Shown here: piece after piece, positions 9,099-60,976 of the stretch | Numbering within the stretch: the first letter of the stretch is position 1 | How the letters are laid out: the number at the start of each line of letters is the position of its first letter | DNA from: an uncultured Gemmatimonadales bacterium | GTDB taxonomy: Bacteria > Gemmatimonadota > Gemmatimonadetes > Gemmatimonadales > GWC2-71-9 | Assembly (NCBI GenBank): GCA_963779755.1 | Contig: CAVZZO010000001.1 | Location: 1 to 64,000 of the forward strand | Length of the DNA stretch: 64,000 nt | Reading direction: 5' to 3' | Program-made: the position numbers and the translations under genes | The notes under the pieces: model-generated | Told to the model about the DNA's origin: nothing | Database searches by the model: none | What the model saw: only the letters and a program-made list of their open reading frames with translations

Positions 9099-9254
9099 AT
9101 GCCCCCCGCTCCCTCCCCCTCCCCCCGCCAGCCCGCTGAGAGCAATCCGCTAACCTACTACCGGATAAAGGTTTGTCCCGAGTGCTCCGGGCCGGTGGTG
9201 CGGAACTCCGGGTGCATGCACTGCCTGCAGTGCGGGTGGGGGAGATGCGAATGA
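9099..9254 (+). CDS. 51-aa Zn-ribbon protein (copy 1, no insertion)
   Basis: Manual translation: MPPAPSPSPRQPAESNPLTYYRIKVCPECSGPVVRNSGCMHCLQCGWGRCE; ATGA overlap with the next ORF; below the ORF-track size cutoff. Confidence 0.7.
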   Translation: MPPAPSPSPRQPAESNPLTYYRIKVCPECSGPVVRNSGCMHCLQCGWGRCE

Positions 9255-9685
9255 AGGCGGTACGGCGGTACGGCGGTACGGCGGTAGGGGAGCCGAAGGA
9301 AGACTCCCGGGTCGCGGTACGGCGGTACGGCGGTACGGCGGTAGGGGAGCCGAAGGAAGACTCCCGGGCCGCCAGCCAGCCGGACCTGGACCCGGAAAGC
9401 TCGATGGGGCGCTCCCGGAAGGCGGGAGGGTGGGAGGGCGGGAAGGCGGGAAGCGAGGCGCCAGTCGAGCGCCGAGGTCATCCTTCGCTCCGGGCCGCCA
9501 GCCAGCCTGAACCTACTCCGGGCCTCCGCGCAGGGCGCTCCCTGCCGGTCCTGGAAGATGGGAAAGGCGCGCTGGCGGTTCGGGGCGAAGCGCCTCCCGC
9601 CTTCCCGCCTTCCCGCCCTCCCGCCGCTGTTCCTACCGCCGTACCGCCCTACCGCCGTACCGCCGTTGTTCCTCCCGCCTTCCCG
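9251..9685 (+). pseudogene. Truncated duplicate of the radical SAM 5' repeat-rich leader
   Basis: Near-identical to 14485-14690 (AVRRYGGTAVGEPKEDSR x2, GRSLPVLEDGKGALAVR), with extra repeat tracts. Confidence 0.7.
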
Positions 9686-10269
9686 CGGGGTACGGTGCCG
9701 CGCGGCCCCCGGGTTGTGCCCACGGGCCCTAATCACGTCTGGGCCATGGACTTTGTGCACGATACCCTGGCCGACGGCCGCGCCATCCGGGTGCTCACGC
9801 TGATCGACAGCTGCACCCGAGAGTGCCTGACCCTCACTGTCGCCCCGCGGTTCACGGGGGCGGACGTCGCGCGGATCGTGGGGGCCGTCGGGGCGGCCTG
9901 CGGTCTGCCGCAGCGCATCGCGGTCGATAACGGGACGGAGTTTACGTCGAAGGCGTTCGACGCGTGGGCCTACTGGAACCACGTGCAGCTCGATTTCAGC
10001 CGCCCCGGCAAACCGGTGGACAACTGTCTGATCGAGGCGTTCAACGGATCCCTGCGGCGCGAGTGCCTCTCGCAACACTGGTTTGCGTCCCCGCACGAAG
10101 CCCAACAGATTCTCTCCCAGTGGCGGGAGGACTACAACAACGTTCGGCCGCACACGAGCTTTGCCCACCGCTCGCCGGCCATGCTGACCCAGGGTGGGCA
10201 CTACATCCCAGGCCCCAACCGCCTGCCGAACTGCGACTTCTAGTGGTCCTACTTTGGGGAGACCCGCCA
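9685..10269 (+). mobile_element. IS3-family remnant (OrfB integrase core and right end)
   Basis: PNHVWAMDFVHD..LIDSCTRECL..DNGTEF..PGKPVDNCLIEAFNGSLRRECL..YNNVRPH DDE core; IS3-like terminus ending ..CA at about 10269; OrfA/HTH missing. Confidence 0.85.
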
Positions 10270-14178: not shown

Positions 14179-14251
14179 TTGACGCCCGTCTCTACTTCGG
14201 CATATATTCGGTTCTCGAAGCCGAATATCAACCGAAGCAAGGCAGGTGCCC
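14179..14251 (+). promoter_or_regulatory. Copy C: promoter/operator of the intact mutagenesis operon
   Basis: TTGACG-N18-TATATT; TTCGG-N6-TTCGG-N9-CCGAA-N6-CCGAA overlapping the -10 and start region. Confidence 0.7.
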
Positions 14252-14488
14252 ATGCCCCCCGCTCCCTCCCCCTCCCCCCGCCAGCCCGCTGACCGCCCGA
14301 GTGGGCGGAATGGGCAGAGTGGGCAGAATGGGCTGACGAAAGCCCACCAGATCCGTCACAGGTCGCCGGCGGAGACCAACCACCTAACCTACCACCTGAT
14401 AAGAGTTTGTCCCGAGTGCTCCGGGCCGGTGGTGCGGAACTCCGGCTGCATGCACTGCCTGCAGTGTGGATGGGGGAGATGCGAATGA
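14252..14488 (+). CDS. 78-aa Zn-ribbon protein (copy 2, with a 27-aa in-frame insertion)
   Basis: CPEC-x9-CMHCLQC-x4-C; ATGA coupling to the radical SAM start at 14485. Confidence 0.7.
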   Translation: MPPAPSPSPRQPADRPSGRNGQSGQNGLTKAHQIRHRSPAETNHLTYHLIRVCPECSGPVVRNSGCMHCLQCGWGRCE

Positions 14489-15894
14489 AGGCGGTACGGC
14501 GGTACGGCGGTACGGCGGTAGGGGAGCCGAAGGAAGACTCCCGGGTCGCGGTACGGCGGTACGGCGGTACGGCGGTAGGGGAGCCGAAGGAAGACTCCCG
14601 GGCCGCCAGCCAGCCTGAACCCGATCCGGGTCTCCGCGCAGGGCGCTCCCTGCCGGTCCTGGAAGACGGGAAAGGCGCGCTGGCGGTTCGGAGCGCTTCC
14701 TCGACCCTCTCGACCCCCTCGACCCCCTCGACCCGCCGAAGGGCACTGGGCGAGCAGCTCATGCTCCAACCCGAGTGGACCCCATCAGCCCGCGCCCCCT
14801 GGATCACCCTGGACACGCGCCAGAGAGGCACCCGCTTCCACCAGCTGCCGGTCAGGTCGGTGCTGAACCCGCCCTCCACTACCGGCATGGGCTTCTGGTC
14901 GCTCAATCCCTATGTGGGGTGTGAGTTCGGGTGCTCGTATTGCTATGCGCGGGATACGCATCGGTGGACTGTCGAACGGGCGCATGAGAAGATGCGGCCG
15001 GTCGCAACTGGGGTCGAGGGGGTCGAGGGGGTCGAGGGAGTCGAGCGGATTGCAGCCGAAGGCTCCGAAATGGTCGAGAAGCTCGAGGGGTGCTCGACCT
15101 CGACCCCCTTGACACCCTTGACCCCCTCGACCGAGCTCTTCGAGCACGAGATCCTCGTAAAGACAGGAGCCCCTGAAGCACTACGCCGCTCGCTCGACCC
15201 AGCGAAGCTGGGCGAGGCGAGCCTCGTCATCGGCACCGCCACCGATGCCTATCAGCCCGCCGAACGAAAGTTCCGCATCACTCGGCAAATTTTGGAGGCG
15301 CTGACGCATTACCGCGGGCTCTCCATCGGGCTCATCACCAAGTCGCCCCTGATCACGAGAGACCTGGATCTGCTGCAGCAGCTGTCGCAGATCCATGAGG
15401 TGAGCGTCAATATCTCGATCGCCACGCTGGACGCGAAGCTGGCCCGCCGTCTGGAGCGCCGCTCGCCGGTGCCGCGGGCCCGGCTCAAAGCACTCAAGAA
15501 GCTCACCGACGGCGGCATCCACGCCGGCGTCCTCATCGCGCCCATCCTCCCCGGCATCACCGACAGCACCCCCGCCCTGCGCGCCCTGATGCGCTCGGCG
15601 AAGGCGGCCGGCGCGTGCTACGTAGCGGGCTCGCCACTCCGGCTGGGGGAATCGATCCGGCAGATGTTCTTCCCCATGCTGGAACGGGAGTTCCCCCACC
15701 TGGTGGAGCGCTACCGGCGCCACTTCGCGGGGAGAGACTACGTGGCGAAGTCGTACCAGCAGGCGCTGATGGAAAGGCTGCGGGGGCTGCAGGAGGAACT
15801 GGGCTTCCCCGTGGCGGAGAGCCGACGCAGGCGGGAACAACTCGAGGGCCGCCGCCGGCGGGAAACCAGAGATCACCAACACAGCATGATCTAG
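14485..15894 (+). CDS. Radical SAM protein, SplB-like/Rv2578c-type (DNA-repair associated), with repeat-derived insertions
   Basis: SLNPYVGCEFGCSYCYAR (CxxxCxxC), IGTATDAYQPAE, ITKSPLITRDLD, APILPGITD. Confidence 0.9.
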   Translation: MKAVRRYGGTAVGEPKEDSRVAVRRYGGTAVGEPKEDSRAASQPEPDPGLRAGRSLPVLEDGKGALAVRSASSTLSTPSTPSTRRRALGEQLMLQPEWTPSARAPWITLDTRQRGTRFHQLPVRSVLNPPSTTGMGFWSLNPYVGCEFGCSYCYARDTHRWTVERAHEKMRPVATGVEGVEGVEGVERIAAEGSEMVEKLEGCSTSTPLTPLTPSTELFEHEILVKTGAPEALRRSLDPAKLGEASLVIGTATDAYQPAERKFRITRQILEALTHYRGLSIGLITKSPLITRDLDLLQQLSQIHEVSVNISIATLDAKLARRLERRSPVPRARLKALKKLTDGGIHAGVLIAPILPGITDSTPALRALMRSAKAAGACYVAGSPLRLGESIRQMFFPMLEREFPHLVERYRRHFAGRDYVAKSYQQALMERLRGLQEELGFPVAESRRRREQLEGRRRRETRDHQHSMI

Positions 15895-15896
15895 TC

Positions 15897-16397
15897 AACT
15901 GCAAACCGCGAAGACGCAAAGAACCGCAAAGAGCGCGAAGAAAGACTTTTTTTGAAAACAGCAAAAAGAAATCGCAGTTCTTCGCGTGCCTTCGCGTCTT
16001 CGCGGTTAGCAGTTCCGATCGCATAGAATGCTCCGATCTGTCCTTAACCGGGACTACGTAACACCGTCATATCAGCAGGCGCTGATGGAAAAGGCTGCGG
16101 GCGCTGCAGGAAGAACTGGGCTTCCCCGTGGCGGAGAGCCGACGCCGCCGGGAGCAGCTGGAAGGCCGCCGGCGACGAGAAACCAGAGATCACCAGACCT
16201 GTATGATTTAGTAACTGCTTAACCGCGAAGACGCGAAGGACGCTAAGGAACGCGAAGAAAGGCCTTTGTAAACTGCAAACCGCGAAGACGCGAAGGACGC
16301 AAAGAGCCGCGAAGAAAAAGCTTTGTGAAAAAAACACCAAAAAACAGCTGTTCTTTGCGACCTTCGCGCCCCTTCGCGTCTTCGCGGTTAGGCAGTT
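15897..16397. repeat. Two ACCGCGAAGACGCGAAG-type hairpins flanking a duplicated gene junction
   Basis: AACTGC-N-ACCGCGAAGACGC..A-rich loop..CTTCGCGTCTTCGCGGTT-N-GCAGTT at 15897-16014 and 16213-16397. Confidence 0.85.
16028..16211 (+). pseudogene. Chimeric remnant: imuB start (MLRSVL) fused to a diverged copy of the radical SAM 3' end
   Basis: 16052-16211 parallels 15736-15894; 16028-16045 parallels 16411-16428. Confidence 0.8.
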
Positions 16398-16410
16398 CCG
16401 ATCTTATTGA

Positions 16411-17709
16411 ATGCTCAGATCTGTTCTCTTTATCGACCCGCCCGCGTTCTGCACCACCGTCGAGGAACTGGTGGCGCCGGCGCTGCGCGCCCGGCCCATC
16501 GTGGTCGCGCCGCCGGGGGCCGACCGCGCCCTCGTCCTGGCGCTCTCCGCCGAGGCGGAACGGGCGGGGATCACGCGGGGGATGGCGCTCAGGCAGGCCC
16601 GGAAACGCTGCCCCGACCTGGTGATCCTCCCGCCCAATCCCCGCCTCTACGCCCGCGCGTCCCGCGCGCTGCACCAGGTGCTGGCCCGCTATGCGCCCAT
16701 CATCGAGCCGCGCTGGTACGGCCACGCCTTCCTCGACCTCACCGGCACCGGCCGGCTCTTCGGCCCGGCGGTGGATGTGGCGGAGAGGATCCGGAGGGAG
16801 GCGGGCGAGAAGCTGCGGCTGCCGCTTTATGTAGGAGTTGCCGGGAATAAGCTCGTCAGTGAAGCATCGGTACGGGCGGTACGGCGGTACGGCGGTATGG
16901 CGGTAGCCGAGCGAACCTCGAGCTCCGGTTCCCCCTTCCCAACAGGGAAGGGGGACAGGGGGTTAGGTCGAGGAGGACGGCAGGACGGCAAGACGGCAGG
17001 ACGGCAGGAGCTGTTTGCGGTACCGAGTGGCGACGAGGCGCAGTTCCTCGCGCCGCACCCGACGCCGGTGCTTCCCGACGTGCCGGAAAAGCTCCGCATC
17101 CGCCTGGAGGAATACCAGCTCGACCTGATCGGCGAGATCGCATCACTCACCGAGCCGCAGATCGGGTCGGTGCTGGGAACGCCCGGCATCCGGCTGCTCT
17201 ACCACGCGCGCGGCATCGACCCTCGGCCGGTGCTGCCGCCGGCGGTCAAAGCCGAATTCCAGATCCAGCACACCCTGGCGACGGACACCAACGACCTGGG
17301 ACACCTGCACACGCTGCTCCGCCGGATGACCGAGCGGCTGGGCCGCCGGCTGCGCCGGCGCGGGCTCTCCGCCGGCCGGCTCAGTGTCACCGTCACCTGG
17401 AGCGACTACAAGGACGCGAGCCGGGGGGTCCCGCTGGCGCCCGCGATGCTGGATGTGGAACTGTGGAACGCCGCGCGACGCGCGTTCACCCTGGCCTGCG
17501 TGCGGCCCGTGTCGGTGCGGATGCTGGGGGTGAGGGTGGATCGGCTGACGGAGTCTGATGTGCAACTCGACCTCTGGCGCGATCGGGAAGAGGTCGAGGG
17601 GGTCGAGAAGGTCGAGAGGGTCGAGGTCGAAAAAACCCGGAGCCTCCAGCGCGCGGTGGACCGGATCCACCGCCGCTGGGGCGAGCGGAGCCTCCTGAGC
17701 CGGGTTTAA
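16411..17709 (+). CDS. imuB: Catalytically inactive Y-family polymerase (ImuB-like)
   Basis: DinB-like fold, but motif I reads FIDPPAF and the SxDE catalytic motif is replaced by WYGHAFLD; clamp motif QLDLW; upstream of dnaE2. Confidence 0.85.
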   Translation: MLRSVLFIDPPAFCTTVEELVAPALRARPIVVAPPGADRALVLALSAEAERAGITRGMALRQARKRCPDLVILPPNPRLYARASRALHQVLARYAPIIEPRWYGHAFLDLTGTGRLFGPAVDVAERIRREAGEKLRLPLYVGVAGNKLVSEASVRAVRRYGGMAVAERTSSSGSPFPTGKGDRGLGRGGRQDGKTAGRQELFAVPSGDEAQFLAPHPTPVLPDVPEKLRIRLEEYQLDLIGEIASLTEPQIGSVLGTPGIRLLYHARGIDPRPVLPPAVKAEFQIQHTLATDTNDLGHLHTLLRRMTERLGRRLRRRGLSAGRLSVTVTWSDYKDASRGVPLAPAMLDVELWNAARRAFTLACVRPVSVRMLGVRVDRLTESDVQLDLWRDREEVEGVEKVERVEVEKTRSLQRAVDRIHRRWGERSLLSRV

Positions 17710-17714
17710 CTCCG

Positions 17715-17960
17715 AACTGCTAACCGCGAAGGCGCGAAGGGCGCCAAGAGCCGCGAAGAAAAAGCTTTGTGAAAAAACAAAAAACAGCTGTTCTTTGCGT
17801 ACTTCGCGCCCCTTCCGTCTTCGCGGTGAAGCTGTTGCCCGATAACCGCGAAAACCCGAAGAGTGCGAAGGACGCCAAGAAATACATTTGTGAAAAACAA
17901 CAAAACAGCAGTTCTTCGCGTATCTTTGCGTCCCTTGGCGCCTTCGCGGTTAGCTGTTGC
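17715..17960. repeat. Two ACCGCGAAG-type hairpins between convergent genes
   Basis: Arms AACCGCGAAG.. / ..CTTCGCGGT at 17722-17828 and 17844-17951. Confidence 0.8.
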
Positions 17961-17962
17961 AG

Positions 17963-18937
17963 TTACCAGACCAGGACGATCTTGCCGAACCCCTCGTTCT
18001 TCTCCATGGCCTCATGAGCTCTTCGCAACTCCGTCATCGGAAAGACCGACCCCACCACTGGATGCAGCTTCCCGGCGACGAACAACGGGATCATCTCGTC
18101 CGCGAAGGTGATGCACAGGGGAATCCGCTCCTCCAGCCCCCGCGAGCGCATGACGGTGCCGATGATCTCCAGCCGCTTCTGCAGCACGGGCGCCAGGTCC
18201 AGCCCGTCCGCCTTCGCCCCCTGGAGGAACCCCAGCAGCACCAGCCGGCCCCGGGGCGCCAGGACAGCGAGGTTGTCGGCCAGCGCGGGGCCGCCCAGGG
18301 CGTCCACGATGACATCGACCGGGTCGCCCACGGCCTCGCGGAAGCTGCCCCCGACCCGGCTGGTATCAATGCCCACGTCGAGCCCCAGTTCGCGGCAGCG
18401 CTCCAGCTTGGAGGCGGTGCGCGAGGTGCCCAGCACCGTGGCGCCCTGGTGCTTCGCGATCTGGATGGCGGCGGTGCCGACCCCGCCGGTCACCGCATGC
18501 CAGAGGAGCCGCTCGCCCGATTGCAGCCGGGCACGGGTGACCAGCGCGTCGTACGCGGTGAGAAAGGCCTCGGGGATGGCGGCGGCCTCGGTGGCGTCGA
18601 GGCTCCGGGGCACGACGATGGTTTCATCTTCGTGGACCACGACATATTCGGCGTGGCCCCCGCCGCCCACCAGGCCCATGACCCGCTCGCCCTTCCGGCG
18701 GCGGATGGCGCCCCGGCCCACGGCATCCACTACCCCGGCGTATTCCAGCCCGGGGACGTCGGCTGGCCAGCCGGGAGGCGCCGGGTAATGGCCCTTCCGC
18801 TGGAGGATATCGGCCCGGTTCAGGCCGGCGGCCTGCACCCGCACCCGGATCTGCCCCGGCCCGGGTTCGGGGGTGGGGACTTCCTTGATCTCGATGACCT
18901 CCGGCCCACCCGGAGCGGTATAGATCGCGGCACGCAT
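17963..18937 (-). CDS. NAD(P)H-quinone oxidoreductase (zeta-crystallin/MDR family)
   Basis: AAGLNRADILQRKGHYP, PGLEYAG, AAIPEAFLTAY, GGVGTAAIQ, GKIVL. Confidence 0.9.
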   Translation of the reverse strand: MRAAIYTAPGGPEVIEIKEVPTPEPGPGQIRVRVQAAGLNRADILQRKGHYPAPPGWPADVPGLEYAGVVDAVGRGAIRRRKGERVMGLVGGGGHAEYVVVHEDETIVVPRSLDATEAAAIPEAFLTAYDALVTRARLQSGERLLWHAVTGGVGTAAIQIAKHQGATVLGTSRTASKLERCRELGLDVGIDTSRVGGSFREAVGDPVDVIVDALGGPALADNLAVLAPRGRLVLLGFLQGAKADGLDLAPVLQKRLEIIGTVMRSRGLEERIPLCITFADEMIPLFVAGKLHPVVGSVFPMTELRRAHEAMEKNEGFGKIVLVW

Positions 18938-18942
18938 AAGGA

Positions 18943-19240
18943 ACAAGCTAACCGCGAAGACGCGAAGGGCGCCAAGGAACGCGAAGAAGAGAATCTTTCG
19001 TAACTGCGACCGCGAAGACGCGAAGAGCGCGAAGGAACGCGAAGAAGAGAATCTTTCGCAACTGCGACCGCGAAGGCGCGAAGGGCGCCAAGGAACGCGA
19101 AGAAGAGAATCTCATTGTAACTGCGACCGTGAAGACGCGAAGAGCGTGAAGATCGCGAAGAACAACTTTGTGAAAAACAAAAAGAAATAGCAGTTCTTTG
19201 CGTGTCTTCGCGTCCTTTGCGTCTTCGCGGTTGCTGTTAA
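18943..19240. repeat. Tandem array of about 58-bp ACCGCGAAG units closed by an inverted arm
   Basis: Units ACCGCGAAGACGCGAAG..GGAACGCGAAGAAGAGAATCT..AACTGCG repeated 3 times plus a partial fourth, then ..CTTCGCGGTT. Confidence 0.85.
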
Positions 19241-19256
19241 CTGACGAGCCTTAGCC

Positions 19257-19793
19257 ATGATGACATACTGTGCAATCGCGCCGGGGCATCCCTATCACGG
19301 CCCCTATCACGATACCGAGTACGGCTTCCCGCTCACCGGCGACGCGGAGCTGTTCGAGCGGCTCATGCTGGAGGTGAACCAGGCAGGGCTATCCTGGCTC
19401 ACCATTCTCAAGAAGCGCGACGCCTTCCGCCGCGCCTACAGGAAGTTCGACCCAGCGGCGGTGGCCCGCTTCGGCGCGAAGGACCGGCGCCGGCTGCTGA
19501 TGGATGCCGGGATCATCCGCAACCGGCTCAAGATCGACGCCGCGATCCACAACGCGCAGGTGATCCTCGACCTGCGCGAGATCCACGGGACCTTCAAGGG
19601 CTGGCTCGACGCGCACCACCCGCGGCCGAAGGAGGAGTGGGTGAAACTGTTCAAGAAGACCTTTCGCTTCACCGGCGGGGAGATCGTGGGGGAGTTCCTG
19701 CTCAGCACCGGCTATCTCCCCGGAGCGCACGAGGAGTCGTGCCCGGTGTACCGCCGCGTGCTGCGTTCGAGGCCGCCCTGGACTCGTAAGTGA
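19257..19793 (+). CDS. tag: DNA-3-methyladenine glycosylase I
   Basis: YHDTEYG, LFERLMLEVNQAGLSWLTILKKR, IIRNRLKIDA, FRFTG. Confidence 0.92.
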   Translation: MMTYCAIAPGHPYHGPYHDTEYGFPLTGDAELFERLMLEVNQAGLSWLTILKKRDAFRRAYRKFDPAAVARFGAKDRRRLLMDAGIIRNRLKIDAAIHNAQVILDLREIHGTFKGWLDAHHPRPKEEWVKLFKKTFRFTGGEIVGEFLLSTGYLPGAHEESCPVYRRVLRSRPPWTRK

Positions 19794-19961
19794 AACCGCG
19801 AAGACGCTAAAAGACGCTAAGAAAATCAAGAAGTCGTTTACCGCGAAGACGCGAAGGGGCGCGAAGGGGCGCGAAGGGGCGCGAAGAAATACTTTGTTGA
19901 AAACAAGAAAAGAAGAAGCAGTTCTTTGCGTATCTTCGCATCCTTCGCGTCTTCGCGGTTG
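19793..19961. repeat. ACCGCGAAG-type hairpin directly before dnaE2
   Basis: AACCGCGAAGACGC..CTTCGCGTCTTCGCGGTT, with an internal (GCGAAGGGGC)n expansion. Confidence 0.8.
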
Positions 19962-19971
19962 ATAGAGATCC

Positions 19972-22900
19972 ATGTTTGTACACCTGCATTGTCACTCCCA
20001 CTTCTCCTTCGGGGCAGGGACGTCCAGCCCCGAGGCGCTGGTGGCGGCCGCCGCCGAGCGCGGGTTCACCGCCCTCGCCTGCACCGACACCAACGGCGTC
20101 TACGGCGCGGTGGAGTTCCAGCAAGCCGCCCTGGAGGCGGGGGTACGGCCGATCCTGGGCGCGCACCTGGAGCATGAGGGGCAGGAGTGTGTGGTGCTCG
20201 CGCTCGACGAGATCGGATGGGGGGCGTTGTGTCGTGCCGTTACGGGGATCCAGTGGGCCCAGGCAGGACGGCAGGTGGAACAGCAGGATCGAACCTTGGC
20301 GTCCGGTCCCCCCTTCCCAATAGGGAAGGGGGACAGGGGGTTAGGTCGGCGGGAAGGCGGGAAGGCTGGCAGGCGGGAGGTGGAACAGCCGGCTCCCTTC
20401 GCTCTTTCGGCCCAGATGGCGACCGATCGCGCCGGCTTGGCCGTGCTGTCGAGAGATATCTCCTTCCTCGAGCGGGTGGTGAAACTCTCGGGTCCCGACG
20501 GCATTTACGCCGAGCTGGTGCCGGGCAAGGAGCGCCACGCCGTGCTCGCCGCCGCTCGGCGGCTGGGGATTCCGGTGGTCGCCACCAATGCCGTGATGAT
20601 GGCGCATCCGGAGGAGTGGTCGAGGCATCGCCTTCTCCGCGCCATCTCATCCAATACCGCCGTTACCGCCGTTACCGCCGCTACCGCCCCGCGCGACGCC
20701 TGGTTGAGGCCCGAGCCCGACCTTGCACGATTCTTTCCTGACGCACCGGAAGCGCTGACGAATGCCGCGCGGATCGCCGACCGCTGCCGCTACCGCATCC
20801 CCATCGGCCGGATCGTGCCGCCCAGGCTGGCGGCGGACCAGGACGCGCACGCCCAGTTGCGCTCGCTCACCTACGAGGGAGCCCTCCGGCGTTACGGCAC
20901 CGTCGCCCCGCTGGTGCGCGACCGGATCGAGCACGAGCTGCGCATCATCGGCATGAAAGGCTTCGCCGATTACTTCCTGGTGGTGCGCGACATCATCCAG
21001 CACGGCCCCACCCACTGCGGCCGCGGCTCGGTGGCCAATTCGGTGGTCAGCTACTGCCTGGGCATCACCCATGTGGAGCCGCTGGGAGCGGGGCTCCTGT
21101 TCGAGCGGTTTCTCAATCCGGAACGCAAAGATCCGCCCGATATCGACCTCGATTTTCCCTGGGACGAGCGCGACAAGGTGCTGGCCTACGTGTTCCAGCG
21201 CTACCCCCGTCCCCGCGCGGCCATGGTGGCGAACCACAACTGCTTCCGGCTACGCGGCGCGCTGCGCGAGGTGGCCAAGGTGCACGGCCGGCCTCCGGGC
21301 GAGATCCGCGAGGTGACCCGCCGCATCCCCTGGTACAGCGACGACGAGTCGCTGGGCGACCTGCTCATGAAGCATCCCAACTACCGGGGGCTGGATCTGC
21401 CCGAGGTCTGGCGCGATCTGGCCAGGATGGCCGAGCCTCTGGTGGGGATCCCCCGGCACCTCTCACTCCATCCCGGCGGGGTGGTGATCGTCCCCGGCAC
21501 GCTCACCGATTACGTGCCGCTGGAGCCGGCGGTGAAGACGCTGGACGGGTTTCCTGACGTGACCGTGCCGGTGATCCAGTTCGAGAAGGATGGGGCGGAA
21601 GACGCCGGGCTGGTGAAGATCGATCTCCTGGGGAACCGCTCGCTGGCGGTGATCCGTGACGCGATCGCCATGGTGAAGGAGAACACCGGCAAGGAGATCG
21701 ACTACACCCGGGGTGACGCGGGCGACGATCCCGCCACCCGGGCGCTGTTCCGTCAGGGGAAGACCATGGGGGTGTTCTACACCGAGTCGCCGGCCTCGCG
21801 CCTGCTCTGCCAGAAGAGCAAGGCGGAGACGTTCGACCTCCTGGTGCTCAACACCAGCATCATCCGGCCGGCGTCCAACCGGTTCATCCGGGTCTATCTC
21901 GAGCGGCTGCACGGCTCTCCCTGGGAGCCGCTGGATCTCTGCCTGCGCGACGTGCTGAGCGACACCTTCGGCGTCATGGTCTATCAGGAGGACGTGGTGA
22001 ACGTCTGCGCCGTTTTCGCCGGCATGCCGCTCGCCACCGGCGACGGGCTGCGCAAGGCGCTCAGCAAGAAACGGCCGGTGAAGCAGCTCGCCGCCTATGC
22101 CGGGGAGTTCTTCGCCGGAGCGGAGGCGCTGGGCCGGAACCCGGAAACGGCGGCGAAGGTGTGGGAGATGATCATGTCCTTCGCCGGTTACAGCTTCTGC
22201 AAGGGGCACTCCTGTTCCTATATCCAGGTGGCGCAGCAGTCGTGCTATCTCCGGGCCAACCATCCCGCCGAGTTCTTCGCCGCCGTGCTGTCGAACGGGG
22301 GCGGGTTCTATCACCCCTTTGCCTATATCGCCGAGGCAATGCGGGAAGGAATCACCATCCTGCCGCCGGATGTGAATGAGAGCCAGGAGCGGTGCACCGG
22401 GCGGGGGCGTGAATTGCGGGTAGGGCTCCAGTTCGTGAAGGGGCTCGGTGCGGAGGCGAGGGAGCGGATTGTCGGAGGACGGCAGGACGGCCCTAAAGGA
22501 CTTCCTCGCGGCCTCATTCGTGGGCCGCTCGGTCGCCAGACGGCAGGACGGCAGGTAGGACGGCAAGACGGCAGGACGGTAAGACGGCAGGAGGAGCATC
22601 CCTATGCATCGCTTGCGGATTTCCGATCACGCACCAGGATAGCGGACGATGATCTCCGGATTCTGATCAAGGTGGGAGCGCTGGATTCCATCGCGAATGG
22701 GCTTACCCGCCCGATGATGCTCTGGGCGGTGGATTCTATCGGTGCAAAGAGTGACCAGGATGGGCAACTGTCGCTCGGCTCCGACCACTTGCCGCCCTGC
22801 CGTCCTGCCGCCTTGCCGCCTTTGAAAGAGTACACGGAGCCCCGCAAGCGCCGGGAACAATACGAGCTCCTGGAATTCAATACAGATGTACACCCCATGT

Positions 22901-23223
22901 CCCTCCACTCCGACACTATCCGTCGGCTGCGGCTGGTGAAGAGCAGCGACCTCTGCCGGCATGTGGGAGAGAGTGTCCTGGTGGCGGGGATGCTCACCAC
23001 GTCCAAGCCGGTCCATACCGTCAAGGACGAGCCGATGGAGTTTGCTACCTTCGACGACGGCCACGGGCTCATCGAGACGGTGCTCTTTCCCGGTGTCTAT
23101 CGCGCCCGCGGCCACGTACTGTTCGACCAGGGTCCGTTTCTGCTGCGGGGGAAGGTGGAGGAGGAGTTCGGGGCGGTGACGCTCACCGTGACGCACCTGG
23201 AGCGGCTGGAGCGAGTTACCTAA
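19972..23223 (+). CDS. dnaE2: Error-prone DNA polymerase III alpha (DnaE2) with repeat insertions
   Basis: PHP HLHCHS, CGRGS, PDIDLD, KIDLLGNR, FCKGH, C-terminal OB fold; located in a cassette with ImuB. Confidence 0.92.
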   Translation: MFVHLHCHSHFSFGAGTSSPEALVAAAAERGFTALACTDTNGVYGAVEFQQAALEAGVRPILGAHLEHEGQECVVLALDEIGWGALCRAVTGIQWAQAGRQVEQQDRTLASGPPFPIGKGDRGLGRREGGKAGRREVEQPAPFALSAQMATDRAGLAVLSRDISFLERVVKLSGPDGIYAELVPGKERHAVLAAARRLGIPVVATNAVMMAHPEEWSRHRLLRAISSNTAVTAVTAATAPRDAWLRPEPDLARFFPDAPEALTNAARIADRCRYRIPIGRIVPPRLAADQDAHAQLRSLTYEGALRRYGTVAPLVRDRIEHELRIIGMKGFADYFLVVRDIIQHGPTHCGRGSVANSVVSYCLGITHVEPLGAGLLFERFLNPERKDPPDIDLDFPWDERDKVLAYVFQRYPRPRAAMVANHNCFRLRGALREVAKVHGRPPGEIREVTRRIPWYSDDESLGDLLMKHPNYRGLDLPEVWRDLARMAEPLVGIPRHLSLHPGGVVIVPGTLTDYVPLEPAVKTLDGFPDVTVPVIQFEKDGAEDAGLVKIDLLGNRSLAVIRDAIAMVKENTGKEIDYTRGDAGDDPATRALFRQGKTMGVFYTESPASRLLCQKSKAETFDLLVLNTSIIRPASNRFIRVYLERLHGSPWEPLDLCLRDVLSDTFGVMVYQEDVVNVCAVFAGMPLATGDGLRKALSKKRPVKQLAAYAGEFFAGAEALGRNPETAAKVWEMIMSFAGYSFCKGHSCSYIQVAQQSCYLRANHPAEFFAAVLSNGGGFYHPFAYIAEAMREGITILPPDVNESQERCTGRGRELRVGLQFVKGLGAEARERIVGGRQDGPKGLPRGLIRGPLGRQTAGRQVGRQDGRTVRRQEEHPYASLADFRSRTRIADDDLRILIKVGALDSIANGLTRPMMLWAVDSIGAKSDQDGQLSLGSDHLPPCRPAALPPLKEYTEPRKRREQYELLEFNTDVHPMSLHSDTIRRLRLVKSSDLCRHVGESVLVAGMLTTSKPVHTVKDEPMEFATFDDGHGLIETVLFPGVYRARGHVLFDQGPFLLRGKVEEEFGAVTLTVTHLERLERVT

Positions 23224-23386
23224 CCCCCTGTCCCCCTTCCCAATTGGGAAGGGGGAATCGAGACCCGAGCCTCACTCAAAACCGGCGGCAGCTACTCGCG
23301 TAAGATGCCACGATGACAGCCTGACACAGCAAAGCCGAACCCCCAGTGCCCCCTTCCCCTTGGGGGAAGGGGGACGGGGGTTAGGT
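23219..23386. repeat. Two opposed CCCCCTTCCC-N4-GGGAAGGGGG-ACAGGGGGTTAGG elements; the first supplies the dnaE2 stop codon
   Basis: Same element as at 16931-16967 (imuB) and 20308-20345 (dnaE2). Confidence 0.8.
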
Positions 23387-46819: not shown

Positions 46820-47587
46820 ATGCGCTGCGCCACCGCCCTGCTTGCCCTGTCTCTCAGCCTGGCTCCCGCCATGATGCATGCCCAGCAGCACCAGTGGCCG
46901 GTTCACTCCATGGACCGGCCCCGCCCCCCCGTGGTCGATCCCGGACCACCGCACCCTCCGGCACCCGCCCCCGGCGACGCCACTGTGCTGTTCAATGGTT
47001 CCGGTCTCTCGCGCTGGGAATCTGCCGACAGCAACGGCGGCCCGGCGCGCTGGACCGTCAGAGACGGGTACCTCGAGATCGCGCCCGGCACCGGAGCCAT
47101 CCGGACGAAACAGGCCTTTCGCGACGTGCAGCTCCACCTCGAGTGGGCCGCCCCGACGCCGCCCCGCGGAGAAAGTCAGGAACGGGGCAACAGCGGCGTC
47201 TTCCTCATGACCCACTATGAAGTCCAGGTGCTCGATTCCTGGCACAACGATACCTACCCCGATGGGCAGGCCGCGGCGATCTACGGCCAGTACCCGCCGC
47301 TGGTGAACGCCAGCCGCCCGCCCGGCGAATGGCAGACCTACGACATCATCTTTCACGCGCCGACCTTCGACGCATCCGGCAACGTCGTGGACTCCACCCG
47401 GATGACCGTGTTCCACAACGGGATCCTGGTGCAGGACAACCGGAGGCTGGAGGGCTGGACCGTGCACGGCCGCCGCGCGACCTACCAGCCCCACCCCGAC
47501 CGGCTGCCGCTGCTGCTGCAGGACCACGGGAACAAGGTGCGGTACCGGAATATCTGGATCAGAGAGCTGACAAGGAGTGAGGACTGA
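46820..47587 (+). CDS. DUF1080 (3-keto-disaccharide hydrolase family) protein
   Basis: LFNG..W, GNSGVF, YEVQVLDS, GEWQTYDI, LQDHG..YRNIWIR. Confidence 0.9.
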   Translation: MRCATALLALSLSLAPAMMHAQQHQWPVHSMDRPRPPVVDPGPPHPPAPAPGDATVLFNGSGLSRWESADSNGGPARWTVRDGYLEIAPGTGAIRTKQAFRDVQLHLEWAAPTPPRGESQERGNSGVFLMTHYEVQVLDSWHNDTYPDGQAAAIYGQYPPLVNASRPPGEWQTYDIIFHAPTFDASGNVVDSTRMTVFHNGILVQDNRRLEGWTVHGRRATYQPHPDRLPLLLQDHGNKVRYRNIWIRELTRSED

Positions 47588-47644
47588 GGACTGAGGACTG
47601 AGGACTGAGGACTGAGGACTGAGGACTGAGGACTGAGGACTGAG
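47578..47644 (+). repeat. (GAGGACT)n heptamer tract, about 9 units, containing the stop codon
   Basis: Directly visible tandem repeat. Confidence 0.95.
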
Positions 47645-51501: not shown

Positions 51502-51775
51502 GGCTCTACATTGAAGACTAGGCCCGCCGGGGACAAGTCGCCGCCCGCGGGCCGGCTGGTGCAGCCTACGCATCCAGACGATCAGCGGTTTCCCTTTGTT
51601 CCGCTCTCGCAGGTTTGGAAGGAGCGGCCCCCAGCCGGCCCGCACCGCGGCCGGGGCAACCGGGCTGGCGCTGGGCGCGCGGGTGGAGATCGAGTGCGTA
51701 GCAGCACGGTGAGCGAGAAGCGGGTACCCGTCTGTCCCGCTTACTGCTCACCGCTCACCGCTTACCGCTCACCGC

Positions 51776-53155
51776 TCACCGCGGCAGCACCTCCGGCATG
51801 TCCGCCACCACATACGCTATCACCGCCATGGTGGCGACACAGCGCGCTACGTCCTGGGGATCGAGTTTGTCCATCGTATCGCCCTGGCTGTGGTGGAACC
51901 AGAAGTAGCGTGTGCCGTCCACCCGCAGTCCCAGCCCGGGGACGCCTTGCTCCATGAGTGGCCCGATATCGGCCTCGCCGCCGCCCCGGGCGATGGAGTC
52001 GGAACCCACCGGCCGGAGCAGGGTGGCGATGCTGCGCAGGATAGCCAGGGTGGAGTCGTTGCCGCCGCCCAGCCCGAAGCCGATCGGGCGGAACACCCCA
52101 CCGTCGGATTCCATGGCCAGCACGTGCTGCTCGGAGGCATGGGCGTCGCGGTAGGCCTCGCCGCCGCGGCCGCCGTTCTCTTCGTTCACCCAGCCGACCA
52201 CCCGGATGGTGCGCCGCGGCCGGAGGCCCAGGGCTTTCATGATCCGCACCGCCTCCCAGGCCGCAACGACCCCGCCGCCGTCATCCATGGCGCCCTGGCC
52301 CACGTCCCACGAATCGATATGGCCGCCCAGGACCACCACCTGCTCCGGATGCTCACTCCCGGTGATCTCGGCCAGCACGTTCCGGGAATGGGCATCCGGG
52401 AGCTGGTGCGCCTGCATCCGGAGCCGCACCACCACCGGCTGCCCCCGGTCCTGCATCCGGTGCAGCATCATGGCATCTTCTACCGACAGCGCGGCCGCGG
52501 GGATCCTGGGGGCGCTGTCGTCGTAGTCCAGGGTGCCGGTGTGCGGGCTGCGGATCGAGTAGGAGGCGATCGAACGGATCAGGCAACCGACCGCCCCCGC
52601 CTTGGCGGCGGCGCTGGGCCCGCGGACCCGATACTGCACCGTCCGTCCGTAGGTCACGAAGGGCGCGTCGAAGAGGACGATCTTTCCCTTCGCCTCCGCC
52701 GCACGCCGGTTCAATTCGGCAAAGTCCGAGACCACCAGCACCGGCGCCGTGATTCCGCTGTCGGGCGTGCCCACGCTCATGCCCAGGCCGAGCATGGGCA
52801 GGTTCATGCGGCGCGGCTGGATCAGCTCGGCCGACTCCTCCCCGCGGACCCAGTGCGGAACCATGACCGGCTCGCCCCGGACACGCTCCAGGCCGTCCTG
52901 CTTCATCTGCCCCAGCATCCAGTCGATCGCCTGCTCCAGGCTGGGCGACCCGCTGAGCCGGTGGCCGTACGTATCCACCATCAGGGCCAGCCGCTGCCAC
53001 GCCGCGCTGTCCCGGGTAGCCGAGGCGATGATCCGCTCGGCCACCGGCCGGTAGCGGGCGATCAGCGCCGAATCGGTCCGGGATTGGGCGCTCAGAGATC
53101 CAGCGGCCAGAGAGGCACAAACGGCGTAACTCGCAACACGGAGCACTCGGTGCAT
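51776..53155 (-). CDS. M28 family peptidase (carboxypeptidase Q-like)
   Basis: GGHIDSWD, GAMDDGGG, NEENG, ESDGG, HH...D. Confidence 0.9.
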   Translation of the reverse strand: MHRVLRVASYAVCASLAAGSLSAQSRTDSALIARYRPVAERIIASATRDSAAWQRLALMVDTYGHRLSGSPSLEQAIDWMLGQMKQDGLERVRGEPVMVPHWVRGEESAELIQPRRMNLPMLGLGMSVGTPDSGITAPVLVVSDFAELNRRAAEAKGKIVLFDAPFVTYGRTVQYRVRGPSAAAKAGAVGCLIRSIASYSIRSPHTGTLDYDDSAPRIPAAALSVEDAMMLHRMQDRGQPVVVRLRMQAHQLPDAHSRNVLAEITGSEHPEQVVVLGGHIDSWDVGQGAMDDGGGVVAAWEAVRIMKALGLRPRRTIRVVGWVNEENGGRGGEAYRDAHASEQHVLAMESDGGVFRPIGFGLGGGNDSTLAILRSIATLLRPVGSDSIARGGGEADIGPLMEQGVPGLGLRVDGTRYFWFHHSQGDTMDKLDPQDVARCVATMAVIAYVVADMPEVLPR

Positions 53156-55938: not shown

Positions 55939-56024
55939 GCGGAATGCCGCTCCCCGCTCACCGCTCACCGCTCACCGCTTACCGCTTACCGCTTACCGCT
56001 TACCGCTTACCGCTTACCGCTTAC
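55925..56024. repeat. GCGGTRA / (CCGCTYA)n heptamer inverted tracts holding both convergent stop codons
   Basis: About 10 CCGCT(C/T)A units; the same family occurs at 51737-51781. Confidence 0.9.
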
Positions 56025-60527: not shown

Positions 60528-60976
60528 CGGCTGCGACCGTCGCGGTGAAGGCCATAGGCCTTGAGCCGCCGCCACAGGGTGGTGCGGCTGATCCCCAGGT
60601 GCCGGGCGGTCTCCGCCAGCTTCCAGTTATTGGCGTCGAGCGTGCGGACGATGGTTTCCTTCTCCCGCTCCGCCAGCGTGGTGGGACCCGCCGTCCCCGG
60701 CAGGAACATGGCCTCGCCCAGCTCCAGCGAGCCGACCCGCAGCGGCCGGAGCCTGCCACCCATGGCGGCGAGGCGCGGCAGCAGATCGCGCGAAGGTTCG
60801 CTCAGGTCTACCGTATCGCCCAGTGCTTCCCGGGCGGGCTGATTGGCATAGATCACCCGGCCTTCCCGGTCGAAGACCAGGACACCCTCGCTGAACCCGT
60901 CCAGCAGGGACTTGGCAAGCGGCGAAAAGACCGACGGCATCGGCGTGGTACCGCTCGAACTCGAGAGGTCTGGCAT
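60509..60976 (-). CDS. PAS + Fis-type HTH protein
   Basis: EGVLVFDREGRVIYAN; TARHLGISRTTLWRRLK. Confidence 0.8.
   Translation of the reverse strand: MPDLSSSSGTTPMPSVFSPLAKSLLDGFSEGVLVFDREGRVIYANQPAREALGDTVDLSEPSRDLLPRLAAMGGRLRPLRVGSLELGEAMFLPGTAGPTTLAEREKETIVRTLDANNWKLAETARHLGISRTTLWRRLKAYGLHRDGRSRWAHSA

What the first reader, a model, noticed from the sequence alone, without database searches (positions are those of the whole stretch)
14252..23223. Composite repeat/hairpin elements inserted in-frame into all four core genes of the mutagenesis operon
Seen: the Zn-ribbon, radical SAM, imuB and dnaE2 genes each carry low-complexity in-frame blocks built from a small toolkit: (GGCGGTAC)n = AVRRYGGTAV, (GGACGGCA)n = RQDGKTAG, (GGCGGGAA)n, (GGTCGAGGG)n = VEG/STP, (GGGCAGAGT)n = GQS, and the hairpin CCCCCTTCCC-N4-GGGAAGGGGG = PFPxGKGDRGLG. 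Different families stack at one site: imuB about 16870-17010 has three in a row; dnaE2 about 20260-20390 and 22475-22595 are similar. No frame is broken. Outside this operon and its duplicate only one clear case was seen (59561-59637). Inference: a non-autonomous insertion system, analogous to Rickettsia palindromic elements but with several interchangeable short-period repeat families sharing hotspots, that writes new peptide into protein loops.
Basis: partly seen in the sequence, partly recalled or inferred. Interest (0 to 1): 0.85.

Follow-up and report, generated by a model that had tools for sequence, protein, structure and literature searches.

The report
Repeat hairpins translated inside mutagenesis genes
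A soil bacterium's error-prone DNA-repair genes carry in-frame pieces of the short tandem-repeat and hairpin DNA that otherwise fills the gaps between its genes; related bacteria carry different repeats at the same spots, so these tolerant protein loops are hit again and again by a repeat-spreading process that is still not understood.

Summary
Radical SAM, imuB and dnaE2 of this Gemmatimonadales genome hold in-frame blocks of 8-9-nt tandem arrays, plus a conserved ~45-70-nt hairpin module. Orthologues in five other genera lack these blocks or hold other repeat families at the same sites.

The blocks are intragenic members of a genome-wide population. My crude gene call places 680 arrays of 41 dispersed families: 441 outside genes, 114 on gene edges, 125 inside. 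Only 41 are truly interior, in 31 genes, and 8 of those 41 lie in this operon. The hairpin module has 69 copies. Its only two interior copies are in imuB and dnaE2.

The "Zn-ribbon" block and the radical SAM 5' blocks may not be translated. No transposase-type ends were found. Two clean indels are flanked by 12- and 18-nt direct repeats, which fits template switching better than transposition.

Mutasome presence does not track array density in relatives. The paralogues dnaE1 and dinB are array-free, so relaxed constraint best explains the pile-up.

This scan has seen the same class before on other DNA (MeaB, rlmN, ispG, comEC). Printed precedents are Rickettsia palindromic elements and the dispersed heptamer/octamer repeats of Geobacter, Xanthomonas and Nostoc. 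Verdict: new variant of a known kind, mechanism open.

The parts
14246..14488 (+). Small ORF ending in a Zn-ribbon (CPECSG...CMHCLQCG). Its 5' part holds an 81-nt block, 14278-14358: a (GGGCAGART)n array plus a small hairpin.
   Evidence: ORF. The block is absent from the paralogous copy (alignment A1). Translation of the 5' part is not shown.
14490..14606 (+). Two 57-nt units. Each is (GGCGGTAC)3.9 followed by the hairpin GGGGAGCCGAAGGAAGACTCCCGGG.
   Evidence: TRF; fold -66.2 kcal/mol, z -4.1. The units lie between the Zn-ribbon stop and the conserved radical SAM core. The same units are in the duplicate at 9256-9372.
14699..14734 (+). (CCTCGACCC)4 array. It is the inverted partner of 15010-15045, across the CxxxCxxC-coding segment.
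   Evidence: TRF; sequence.
14755..15894 (+). Conserved core of an Rv2578c/PA0069-family radical SAM gene. The longest ORF starts at 14407.
   Evidence: Pfam PF04055; NCBIfam NF038135 and NF033668, both below cut-off and in two stretches; orthologue alignment.
15010..15132 (+). In-frame 123-nt hairpin inside radical SAM: (GGGGTCGAG)4, a 52-nt spacer, then (CCTCGACCC)3.9. It reads VEGVEGVEG...STSTPLTPLTPST.
   Evidence: TRF; RNA fold -85.1 kcal/mol, z -6.6, 0 of 200 shuffles as good. The site is short in G016 and G017 and holds other repeat hairpins in G015 and G002.
16411..17709 (+). imuB-type Y-family polymerase gene, with the catalytic Asp-Glu replaced by Gly-His.
   Evidence: Pfam IMS and IMS_C; alignment to Pol IV chains.
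16868..17009 (+). Composite in-frame insert in imuB: (GGCGGTAC)4.6, the hairpin module (16932-16968), then (GGACGGCA)4.5.
   Evidence: The orthologues have about 28 fewer residues here. The site maps between Pol IV residues 151 and 163.
17592..17625 (+). (GGTCGAGAG)3.8 array in the variable C-terminal part of imuB (EEVEGVEKVERVEVE).
   Evidence: TRF; alignment.
19972..23223 (+). dnaE2, the error-prone Pol III alpha paralogue.
   Evidence: Pfam; NCBIfam NF004225, one stretch over residues 2-1080, below cut-off.
20273..20389 (+). Composite in-frame insert in the PHP domain of dnaE2: the hairpin module (20310-20346) plus (GGCGGGAA)3.9. It is bounded by the 12-nt direct repeat AGGTGGAACAGC at 20273 and 20378, 105 nt apart.
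   Evidence: Orthologues have 3-10 residues here.
20655..20688 (+). (TACCGCCGT)3.8 array in dnaE2 (NTAVTAVTAATA).
   Evidence: TRF. A short-read contig of run X1 covers 20613-20763 with 0 differences. G007 has an unrelated hairpin at this site.
22476..22592 (+). (GGACGGCA)n arrays splitting the HhH domain of dnaE2.
   Evidence: The block is absent in G007, G015 and G017. G002 has a degenerate GGACGGCA array and G016 a different hairpin at the same site.
22788..22822 (+). (CTTGCCGC)4.4, the inverted complement of the 22476-22592 arrays, about 195 nt downstream, in frame (LPPCRPAALPPL).
   Evidence: An X1 contig covers 22687-22879 with 1 difference.
23218..23254 (-). Third exact copy of the hairpin module, overlapping the dnaE2 stop. 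The TAA lies in the module's ACCTAAC. A variant copy sits near 23350.
9173..9700 (+). Truncated duplicate of the Zn-ribbon/radical SAM 5' end. It carries nested inverted arrays (GGCGGTAC, GGAAGGCG, then their complements) and runs into an IS3-type transposase frame.

Best explanation
The blocks are intragenic members of a genome-wide population of small non-coding repeats typical of Gemmatimonadales. The population has two parts: tandem arrays of 7-9-nt units (about 4 copies each, often paired with an inverted array to form a long hairpin), and a conserved ~45-70-nt hairpin module.

**Proposed course of events.**
1. The repeats are copied to new places. (Inferred.)
2. Copying goes mostly by replication or repair template switching rather than by a transposase. 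(Inferred.)
3. Most copies settle between genes or at gene ends. (Shown.)
4. Inside genes only copies that keep the frame, carry no stop codon and fall in length-tolerant surface loops survive. (Shown in part.)

**Why this operon.** The Zn-ribbon / radical SAM / imuB / dnaE2 operon is non-essential and evolves faster than its housekeeping paralogues. Its loops therefore accumulate such copies, and they do so repeatedly in several genera. The inserts are most likely read through as disordered linker peptide. One of them, in radical SAM, also puts a very stable hairpin into the mRNA.
For: **Insertion.**
- Orthologue alignments show the blocks are extra.
- The two paralogous copies in the window differ by clean 81-nt and 126-nt indels that each carry a whole array.

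**Part of a dispersed population.**
- 680 arrays in 41 families: 441 outside genes, 114 on edges, 125 inside.
- 69 hairpin modules: 63 outside, 3 edge, 3 inside.
- 197 of 680 arrays have an inverted partner within 500 nt, against 62 with a direct partner.

**Selection filter.**
- 7/8-mer families with no stop on either strand are in genes in 153 of 377 arrays. This drops to 23 of 233 with a stop on one strand and 1 of 20 with stops on both.
- Hosts of interior arrays include ffh, carB, uvrA, thiC, argG, dnaX, lhr and acrB-type genes.

**Recent, lineage-private amplification.** (GGACGGCA)3 was found in 1 of 121 Gemmatimonadales genomes searched, G000 only.

**Recurrent sink.**
- 8 of 41 interior arrays lie in 3 genes, against 0.07 expected (Poisson P 1.5e-14; arrays are not independent).
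- dnaE2, imuB and radical SAM of G015, G016, G007 and G002 carry their own arrays. dnaE1 of 3 of 3 relatives has none, G000 dinB has none, and G000 dnaE1 has only 2 short arrays of GC-rich units (GCTGGG, GCCCGGCG) that are not dispersed families.
- dnaE1 is about 79% identical to relatives, dnaE2 65-70%.

**Against a transposase.**
- Flanking direct repeats are 12 nt (dnaE2) and 18 nt (the 126-nt indel), so their length varies.
- No RVT_1 gene was found.
- The 3 Y1_Tnp genes have no dispersed-type 7-9-nt arrays within 800 nt.
Against: - The copying step has not been observed. No filled/empty polymorphism could be retrieved.
- Most insert borders show no flanking direct repeat, so the template-switch idea rests on two junctions.
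- My gene call is crude: 3061 genes, 82% coverage, longest-ORF starts. The inside/outside counts are therefore approximate.
- Translation of the inserts is inferred from open frames only.
- The no-stop class includes GC-only units that are ordinary coding low complexity, which inflates the 41%.
- Relaxed constraint does not obviously explain why both interior copies of the hairpin module in the whole genome sit in this one operon. Local spread is assumed.
Confidence: 0.6

Rival explanations
1. A dedicated mobiliser moves the repeats. One candidate is the small four-helix-bundle protein of the 23S-rRNA-IVS family (PF05635), encoded inside repeat-armed hairpins. Another is a REP-type Y1 transposase. 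On this reading the operon blocks are true transposition products.
For: All 8 of 8 PF05635 genes over the family cut-off in this genome have 7-11-nt tandem arrays within 500 nt, 7 of them on both sides, and in several cases the two sides are complementary. The genome holds 3 Y1_Tnp genes. The hairpin module is conserved exactly over 37 nt in several Gemmatimonadales genomes, as expected of a mobile unit.
Against: PF05635 proteins have no known nuclease or recombinase activity (my knowledge, not tested here). The Y1_Tnp genes have no dispersed-type 7-9-nt arrays within 800 nt. There are no fixed element ends and no constant target duplication. Array copy number varies freely.
Confidence: 0.15
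2. The blocks arose in place. Slippage expanded local short sequences in already variable loops, and the likeness between loci reflects a shared mutational bias rather than copying.
For: The insert sites are variable-length linkers in all orthologues. The sequence just right of the imuB insert again contains GCGGTAC, which resembles the adjacent array unit. G002 has a degenerate GGACGGCA array at the dnaE2 site, so that array may be old.
Against: The same 8-mer occurs in 98 TRF rows across both large contigs. A 37-nt hairpin recurs exactly. Whole array-plus-hairpin blocks are gained or lost as units between the two paralogous copies. Different families replace one another at one site.
Confidence: 0.12
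3. The inserts are kept because they do something for the SOS mutagenesis operon. They could be mRNA hairpins that act as RNase III or attenuation sites and keep the mutasome low, or flexible linkers needed by the proteins.
For: The radical SAM hairpin is very stable (-85.1 kcal/mol, z -6.6). The same sites are occupied in 4-5 genera. The module sits exactly on the dnaE2 stop codon.
Against: Neither sequence nor peptide is conserved between genera. G017 has almost no inserts. Single arrays do not fold better than shuffles.
Confidence: 0.08
4. The error-prone polymerase complex itself makes the repeats, and marks its own genes in passing.
For: Only the concentration of inserts in this operon, and the presence of other repair and replication genes (uvrA, lhr, dnaX) among the hosts.
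Against: In 80-kb samples, relatives without an imuB orthologue have arrays: G019 3.7, G020 7.5, G028 5.0 and G023 3.7 per 100 kb. Two relatives with the operon have almost none: G016 1.2, G017 0. The samples are small.
Confidence: 0.03
5. The tracts are assembly artefacts.
For: No read set bridging the composite inserts could be laid.
Against: At least nine blocks all keep long frames open. Short contigs of run X1 match two arrays exactly or with 1 difference; that run may be the source sample, so it is not independent. Analogous inserts occur in five other assemblies.
Confidence: 0.02

Closest known systems
Rickettsia palindromic elements (RPE). Seen here as passages of the MITE review PMC10969869; Ogata et al. 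2000 is recalled, not read.
   Same: Small palindromic repeat families sit in frame inside unrelated, functional genes and add peptide to tolerant parts of proteins.
   Different: RPEs are about 150-bp units with a conserved peptide, in AT-rich obligate intracellular bacteria. Here the material is tandem 7-9-mers of free copy number plus a ~45-70-nt hairpin, in a 68.5% GC soil bacterium. It is mostly intergenic, with genome-private unit families. No sequence relation was tested.
Dispersed tandem heptamer/octamer elements of Geobacter metallireducens. Aklujkar et al. 2009, PMC2700814; passages and supplement legends read.
   Same: [quoted passage not shown] Octamer arrays also occur as pairs on opposite strands.
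   Different: There they were read as regulator binding sites or regulatory RNAs. No orthologue-based evidence for insertion, no stacking of families and no focus on one operon was described in the passages I saw.
G-rich heptamer repeats of Xanthomonas and Nostoc / STRR. Rehm et al. 2015, PMC4692102; passages read.
   Same: Dispersed tandem heptamers with about 4 units, mainly intergenic (89-93% and 68%), close to gene ends, and fast-changing between relatives.
   Different: They were interpreted as G-quadruplex formers. Inverted pairing and in-frame coding copies were not the subject.
REP/REPIN with RAYT transposases, and MITEs. Search listings and abstracts only: PMC3116915, PMC3733652.
   Same: Short hairpin-forming, non-autonomous, clustered intergenic repeats.
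   Different: No RAYT is associated, no GTAG/CGTC-tagged unit was defined, and there are no terminal inverted repeats with constant target duplication.
imuA'-imuB-dnaE2 mutagenesis cassette (general knowledge; not read here).
   Same: A catalytically dead Y-family imuB next to dnaE2.
   Different: No RecA-like imuA' was seen. A Zn-ribbon ORF and an Rv2578c-family radical SAM gene stand upstream instead. A quinone oxidoreductase gene and tag sit between imuB and dnaE2.

Membership tests
Rickettsia palindromic elements | Repeat family copies inserted in frame in functional ORFs | tested here: met
   Open frames and orthologue alignments.
Rickettsia palindromic elements | Unit of about 100-150 bp with a conserved sequence and peptide, homologous to RPE-1 to RPE-10 | not tested
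   No RPE sequence was compared. The architecture differs: tandem 7-9-mers of variable copy number.
MITE | Defined terminal inverted repeats and a constant-length target site duplication | tested here: not met
   Flanking direct repeats are 12 nt and 18 nt at two junctions, with none obvious elsewhere.
MITE | Related autonomous IS sharing the ends | not tested
   The IS3- and IS30-like ORFs in the window were not compared with the repeat ends.
REP/REPIN-RAYT | Y1 (RAYT) transposase gene flanked by the repeats | tested here: not met
   3 Y1_Tnp genes; none has a dispersed-type 7-9-nt array within 800 nt.
Dispersed long-unit simple sequence repeats (STRR / G-rich heptamers / Geobacter H4 elements) | Tandem 7-9-nt units, about 4 copies, the same unit at many loci, mostly intergenic | tested here: met
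   41 families, 680 arrays, 555 outside or on the edge of predicted genes.
Integron attC sites | One site at each cassette border next to intI, with R''/R' core sites | tested here: not met
   There are two intI genes. The module contains GTTAGGT, but copies form clusters and do not mark cassette borders in C1:640-693 kb.
Intein or intron (removed insert) | Splicing domains or a ribozyme structure | tested here: not met
   No Rfam family reaches threshold in the window. The inserts are 11-45 low-complexity residues, and no Pfam domain lies in them.
imuB (inactive Y-family polymerase) | Y-family fold with the catalytic carboxylates lost | tested here: met
   Pfam IMS and IMS_C. Pol IV 'SLDEAYLD' aligns to 'WYGHAFLD'.
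dnaE2 | Full-length match to the error-prone polymerase model | tested here: inconclusive
   NF004225 matches over residues 2-1080 but scores 588 bits against a cut-off of 939. It stands next to imuB, and a separate dnaE1 exists at C3:940504-943980.

The most novel reading that the evidence does not exclude
The repeats are written by a dedicated, still unknown hairpin-directed system of Gemmatimonadales and several other phyla. It may be tied to the four-helix-bundle (23S-IVS-family) genes, all of which sit beside tandem arrays here (7 of 8 between two arrays). On this reading the SOS mutagenesis operon is a preferred target rather than merely a tolerant one, so the system would remodel the loops of error-prone polymerases in a directed way.
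Probability: 0.1. Interest if true: 0.85.

Novelty: new variant of a known kind. Interest (0 to 1): 0.55.

Why it matters
The finding shows how short non-coding repeats become protein sequence in a GC-rich free-living bacterium. That process is known in detail mainly from Rickettsia.

This locus offers an unusually rich natural experiment:
- one operon hit at about ten places;
- different families at the same sites in other genera;
- a paralogous copy that records recent gains and losses.

It also warns annotators that low-complexity peptides such as RQDGKTAG, VEGVEG and PFPxGKGDRGLG in these lineages are repeat DNA read through, not conserved motifs.

The mechanism of spread is an open question that cultured Gemmatimonas strains could answer.

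Tried and rejected
- **Rfam at gathering threshold on the window:** 0 matches.
- **AlphaFold2 of ImuB from a 6-sequence alignment:** mean pLDDT 47.1, pTM 0.29. This is too poor to place the insert on a structure. I used sequence alignment to Pol IV chains instead.
- **Sequencing runs:** 8 were listed, all with small shares (0.18 or less), and no RNA holder was listed.
- **Laid contigs of 4 runs:** none bridges the composite inserts at 16868-17009 or 20273-20389. Only short exact pieces of X1 were useful.
- **Metagenome scan with a 26-nt left flank of the imuB insert:** 0 matches.
- **Two hits of the module in another Gemmatimonadales genome at similar contig coordinates (L032, L033):** I tested them as possible syntenic imuB/dnaE2 copies. 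They are unrelated loci.
- **Integron attC reading of the module:** rejected.
- **Reverse-transcriptase (telomerase-like) writing of tandem units:** no RVT_1 match in a 97%-complete genome.
- **Mutasome as maker of the repeats:** no support from sampled relatives.
- **Strict flank-coding filter:** it kept 20 arrays in 15 genes but dropped the stacked imuB and dnaE2 blocks, because neighbouring repeats depress the flank score. I replaced it with the distance filter.
- **Literature searches:** searches found no paper on such repeats in Gemmatimonadota.
- **Supplements:** the supplementary files of PMC2700814 were not opened.
Full report
**What is there.** The window is the first 64 kb of contig C1 of a 4.23-Mb, 68.5% GC genome. 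Its close relatives, by exact matches of one repeat, are Gemmatimonadales.

The region 14.2-23.3 kb holds these genes:
- a small ORF ending in a Zn-ribbon (14246-14488);
- an Rv2578c/PA0069-family radical SAM gene (longest ORF 14407-15894);
- an imuB-type Y-family polymerase gene (16411-17709);
- a quinone oxidoreductase gene on the other strand;
- tag;
- dnaE2 (19972-23223).

The Y-family protein has lost the catalytic Asp-Glu: Pol IV 'SLDEAYLD' aligns to 'WYGHAFLD'. A truncated copy of the Zn-ribbon/radical SAM 5' end lies at 9173 and runs into an IS3-type transposase frame.

**Check of the observation.** The arrays are far beyond chance. The 16-mer of two GGACGGCA units with up to 2 mismatches occurs 11 times against 0.14 expected. 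The 37-nt hairpin pattern occurs 3 times against 0.00 expected. All three large frames are intact.

**Are they insertions?** I compared five genera of the same family (G002, G007, G015, G016, G017).
- imuB orthologues match residues 1 to about 160 and about 195 to 428 of the query, with only 2-16 residues between. In the alignment G000 has about 28 extra residues in a linker that varies in all.
- dnaE2 orthologues have 3-10 residues where G000 has about 44 (residues 100-143). G007, G015 and G017 have nothing where G000 has about 30 (residues 848-877).
- In radical SAM, the stretch after the CxxxCxxC motif is shortest in G016 and G017.

The same sites in other genera hold other repeats:
- Radical SAM site: (GGTGTCA)n/(TGACACC)n in G015 and (GGGCGGGA)n/(TCCCGCC)n in G002.
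- dnaE2 HhH site: a degenerate GGACGGCA array in G002 and a different hairpin in G016.
- dnaE2 site at residue about 230: a hairpin in G007.

So the blocks are insertions, and the sites turn over.

Two caveats apply. The blocks at 14490-14740 lie between the Zn-ribbon stop and the conserved radical SAM core. In G017 these two abut. These blocks may therefore be untranslated. The 81-nt block before the Zn-ribbon motif is missing from the paralogous copy, and it lies in an ORF extension of unproven translation.

**What population do they belong to?** TRF on the whole genome gives 5020 rows, with strong excess at periods 7, 8 and 9. I made a crude gene call from codon usage: 3061 genes covering 82% of the genome.

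| Class | Number of arrays |
|---|---|
| All arrays in the 41 dispersed families (unit of 7-9 nt, at least 5 arrays, at least 2 A/T, at least 3 arrays outside genes) | 680 |
| Outside predicted genes | 441 |
| On a gene edge | 114 |
| Inside predicted genes | 125 |
| Inside, under 50 codons from the predicted start (probably over-extended ORFs) | 63 |
| Inside, under 30 codons from the stop | 21 |
| Inside, interior | 41 (in 31 genes) |

- Interior hosts include ffh, carB, uvrA, thiC, argG, dnaX, lhr, PBP1A and two acrB-type genes.
- 197 arrays have an inverted partner within 500 nt, against 62 with a direct partner.
- The hairpin module has 69 copies. 43 of them are packed into C3:1.40-1.45 Mb. 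63 lie outside genes.
- Different families lie within 40 nt of each other 25 times, against 13.3 +/- 3.5 under random placement. Site sharing is therefore real but modest.

**Selection filter.** For 7- and 8-mers every frame is read, so a unit with a stop trinucleotide cannot be coding on that strand.
- Families without a stop on either strand are inside genes in 153 of 377 arrays. This class includes GC-only units.
- Families with a stop on one strand are inside genes in 23 of 233 arrays.
- Families with stops on both strands are inside genes in 1 of 20 arrays.

This fits insertion everywhere followed by purging.

**The operon as a sink.** 8 of the 41 interior arrays lie in the three genes, against 0.07 expected (Poisson P 1.5e-14; the arrays are not independent events). 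The only two truly interior copies of the hairpin module in the genome are those in imuB and dnaE2. A third exact copy overlaps the dnaE2 stop codon.

The pile-up repeats in other genera. dnaE2, imuB and radical SAM of G015, G016, G007 and G002 carry their own arrays, while G017 has almost none. The controls look different:
- dnaE1 of 3 of 3 relatives has no arrays.
- dinB of G000 has none.
- dnaE1 of G000 has only two short arrays of GC-rich units that are not dispersed families.

dnaE1 is about 79% identical between these genera, against 65-70% for dnaE2. Relaxed constraint is the simplest reading.

I tested the alternative that the mutasome makes the repeats, using 80-kb samples:

| Genome | imuB orthologue | Arrays per 100 kb |
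|---|---|---|
| G000 | yes | 10-16 |
| G016 | yes | 1.2 |
| G017 | yes | 0 |
| G019 | no | 3.7 |
| G020 | no | 7.5 |
| G028 | no | 5.0 |
| G023 | no | 3.7 |
| G021 | no | 0 |
| G013 | no | 0 |
| G012 | no | 0 |

No link is visible, though the samples are small.

**How they spread.** The unit families are private. (GGACGGCA)3 occurs in G000 only among 121 Gemmatimonadales genomes searched. The amplification is therefore younger than the genus. The hairpin module, by contrast, recurs exactly in several Gemmatimonadales assemblies. It also appears once each in assemblies labelled as three other phyla, where mis-binning cannot be excluded.

The paralogous copies at about 9.1 and 14.3 kb differ by two clean indels:
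- an 81-nt block (array plus small hairpin);
- a 126-nt block (a GGAAGGCG array) bounded by the 18-nt direct repeat CCGGGCCGCCAGCCAGCC.

The first dnaE2 insert is bounded by the 12-nt repeat AGGTGGAACAGC, 105 nt apart. Long flanking repeats of variable length fit template switching or slippage better than a transposase.

Arrays also occur as inverted pairs around conserved coding segments: 14699 with 15010, and 22476-22592 with 22788. This suggests local copying onto the other strand.

Candidate enzymes:
- No reverse transcriptase gene was found.
- Three Y1 transposase genes exist, but none has a dispersed-type 7-9-nt array within 800 nt.
- All 8 of 8 PF05635 four-helix-bundle genes over the family cut-off have tandem arrays beside them, 7 of them on both sides. 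This makes that family the only gene class tied to the repeats. What it does is unknown.

**Consequences.**
- The radical SAM insert is a 133-nt hairpin of -85.1 kcal/mol (z -6.6).
- The imuB composite folds around the module (-69.9 kcal/mol, z -4.0).
- Single arrays do not fold better than shuffles.
- The imuB insert lies where Pol IV has 11 residues, between residues 151 and 163.
- The dnaE2 inserts split the PHP and HhH Pfam matches.
- A structure model of ImuB was too poor to use.

**Assembly.** Short contigs of run X1 match 20613-20763 exactly and 22687-22879 with one difference. That run may be the source sample. Nothing bridged the composite inserts. Nine or more frame-keeping blocks, together with parallel cases in five other assemblies, make an artefact very unlikely.

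**Comparison with what is known.**
- In-frame palindromic repeats are known from Rickettsia (review passages).
- Geobacter metallireducens has 49 elements of four tandem heptamers 'within genes ... as well as between genes', and paired octamer arrays on opposite strands.
- Xanthomonas and Nostoc have dispersed G-rich heptamers, mostly intergenic.
- My searches found nothing in print on Gemmatimonadota.

Earlier notes of this scan describe the intergenic hairpins of this same genome, and in-frame octamer hairpins in MeaB, rlmN, ispG and comEC of other genomes. The class is therefore not new to the scan. New here are four things:
- the load on one operon;
- its recurrence in other genera set against clean paralogues;
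- the private nature of the unit families;
- the indel junctions.

No claim in this report rests on the unpublished genome G014.

Noticed in passing
window 15904-16326, 17725-17931, 18951-19213, 19801-19957: All four spacers of the operon are filled with a further repeat type built on CGCGAAGA/TCTTCGCG, with 57-58-nt higher-order units. These spacers bracket the quinone oxidoreductase and tag genes that separate imuB from dnaE2.
   Followed up: no
G000 C3:1.40-1.465 Mb: This region is a repeat 'nursery'. 43 of the 69 hairpin modules lie in one 50-kb bin, in 80-nt and about 90-120-nt tandem arrangements with other modules (gtcaccctgagcg..., ctcgcaatgacag...).
   Followed up: partly
G000 C1:1383396, 1925512, 2133233; C3:485106, 1257663, 1559752, 1584211, 1585128: All eight 23S-rRNA-IVS-family (PF05635) genes have tandem 7-11-nt arrays within 500 nt. 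Seven have arrays on both sides, and in several of these the two arrays are complementary.
   Followed up: partly
window 59558-59637, minus-strand gene 58296-60575: A (GCCCACTCT)8.9 array is read as (SGQ)n inside a 760-residue protein with a weak DUF5686 match. Both flanks have good coding scores.
   Followed up: partly
window 47573-47644, 51737-51782, 55947-56025: Long heptamer arrays: (AGGACTG)10.3, (CCGCTCA)6.6 and (CCGCTCA)11.3. Genome-wide, these stop-bearing heptamer families often sit on gene edges (20 of 56 and 12 of 37 arrays), so some may supply stop codons.
   Followed up: no
window 14755-15891: The radical SAM protein matches both the plain and the intein-containing Rv2578c-family models. 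The intein model has 258 more positions upstream of the point where the second matched stretch begins, so this protein family also hosts inteins N-terminal of that point.
   Followed up: no
G000 C1:690828-691766 and C3:405150-406091: Two full-length integron integrase genes score above the TIGR02249 cut-off.
   Followed up: partly
L014 (G017) and L015 (G016): The dnaE2 orthologues of G017 and G016 are each split into two frames. G017 breaks near residue 840-890 of the query and G016 near residue 330. G002 and G015 have contig breaks inside dnaE2, near the sites where G000 has inserts.
   Followed up: no
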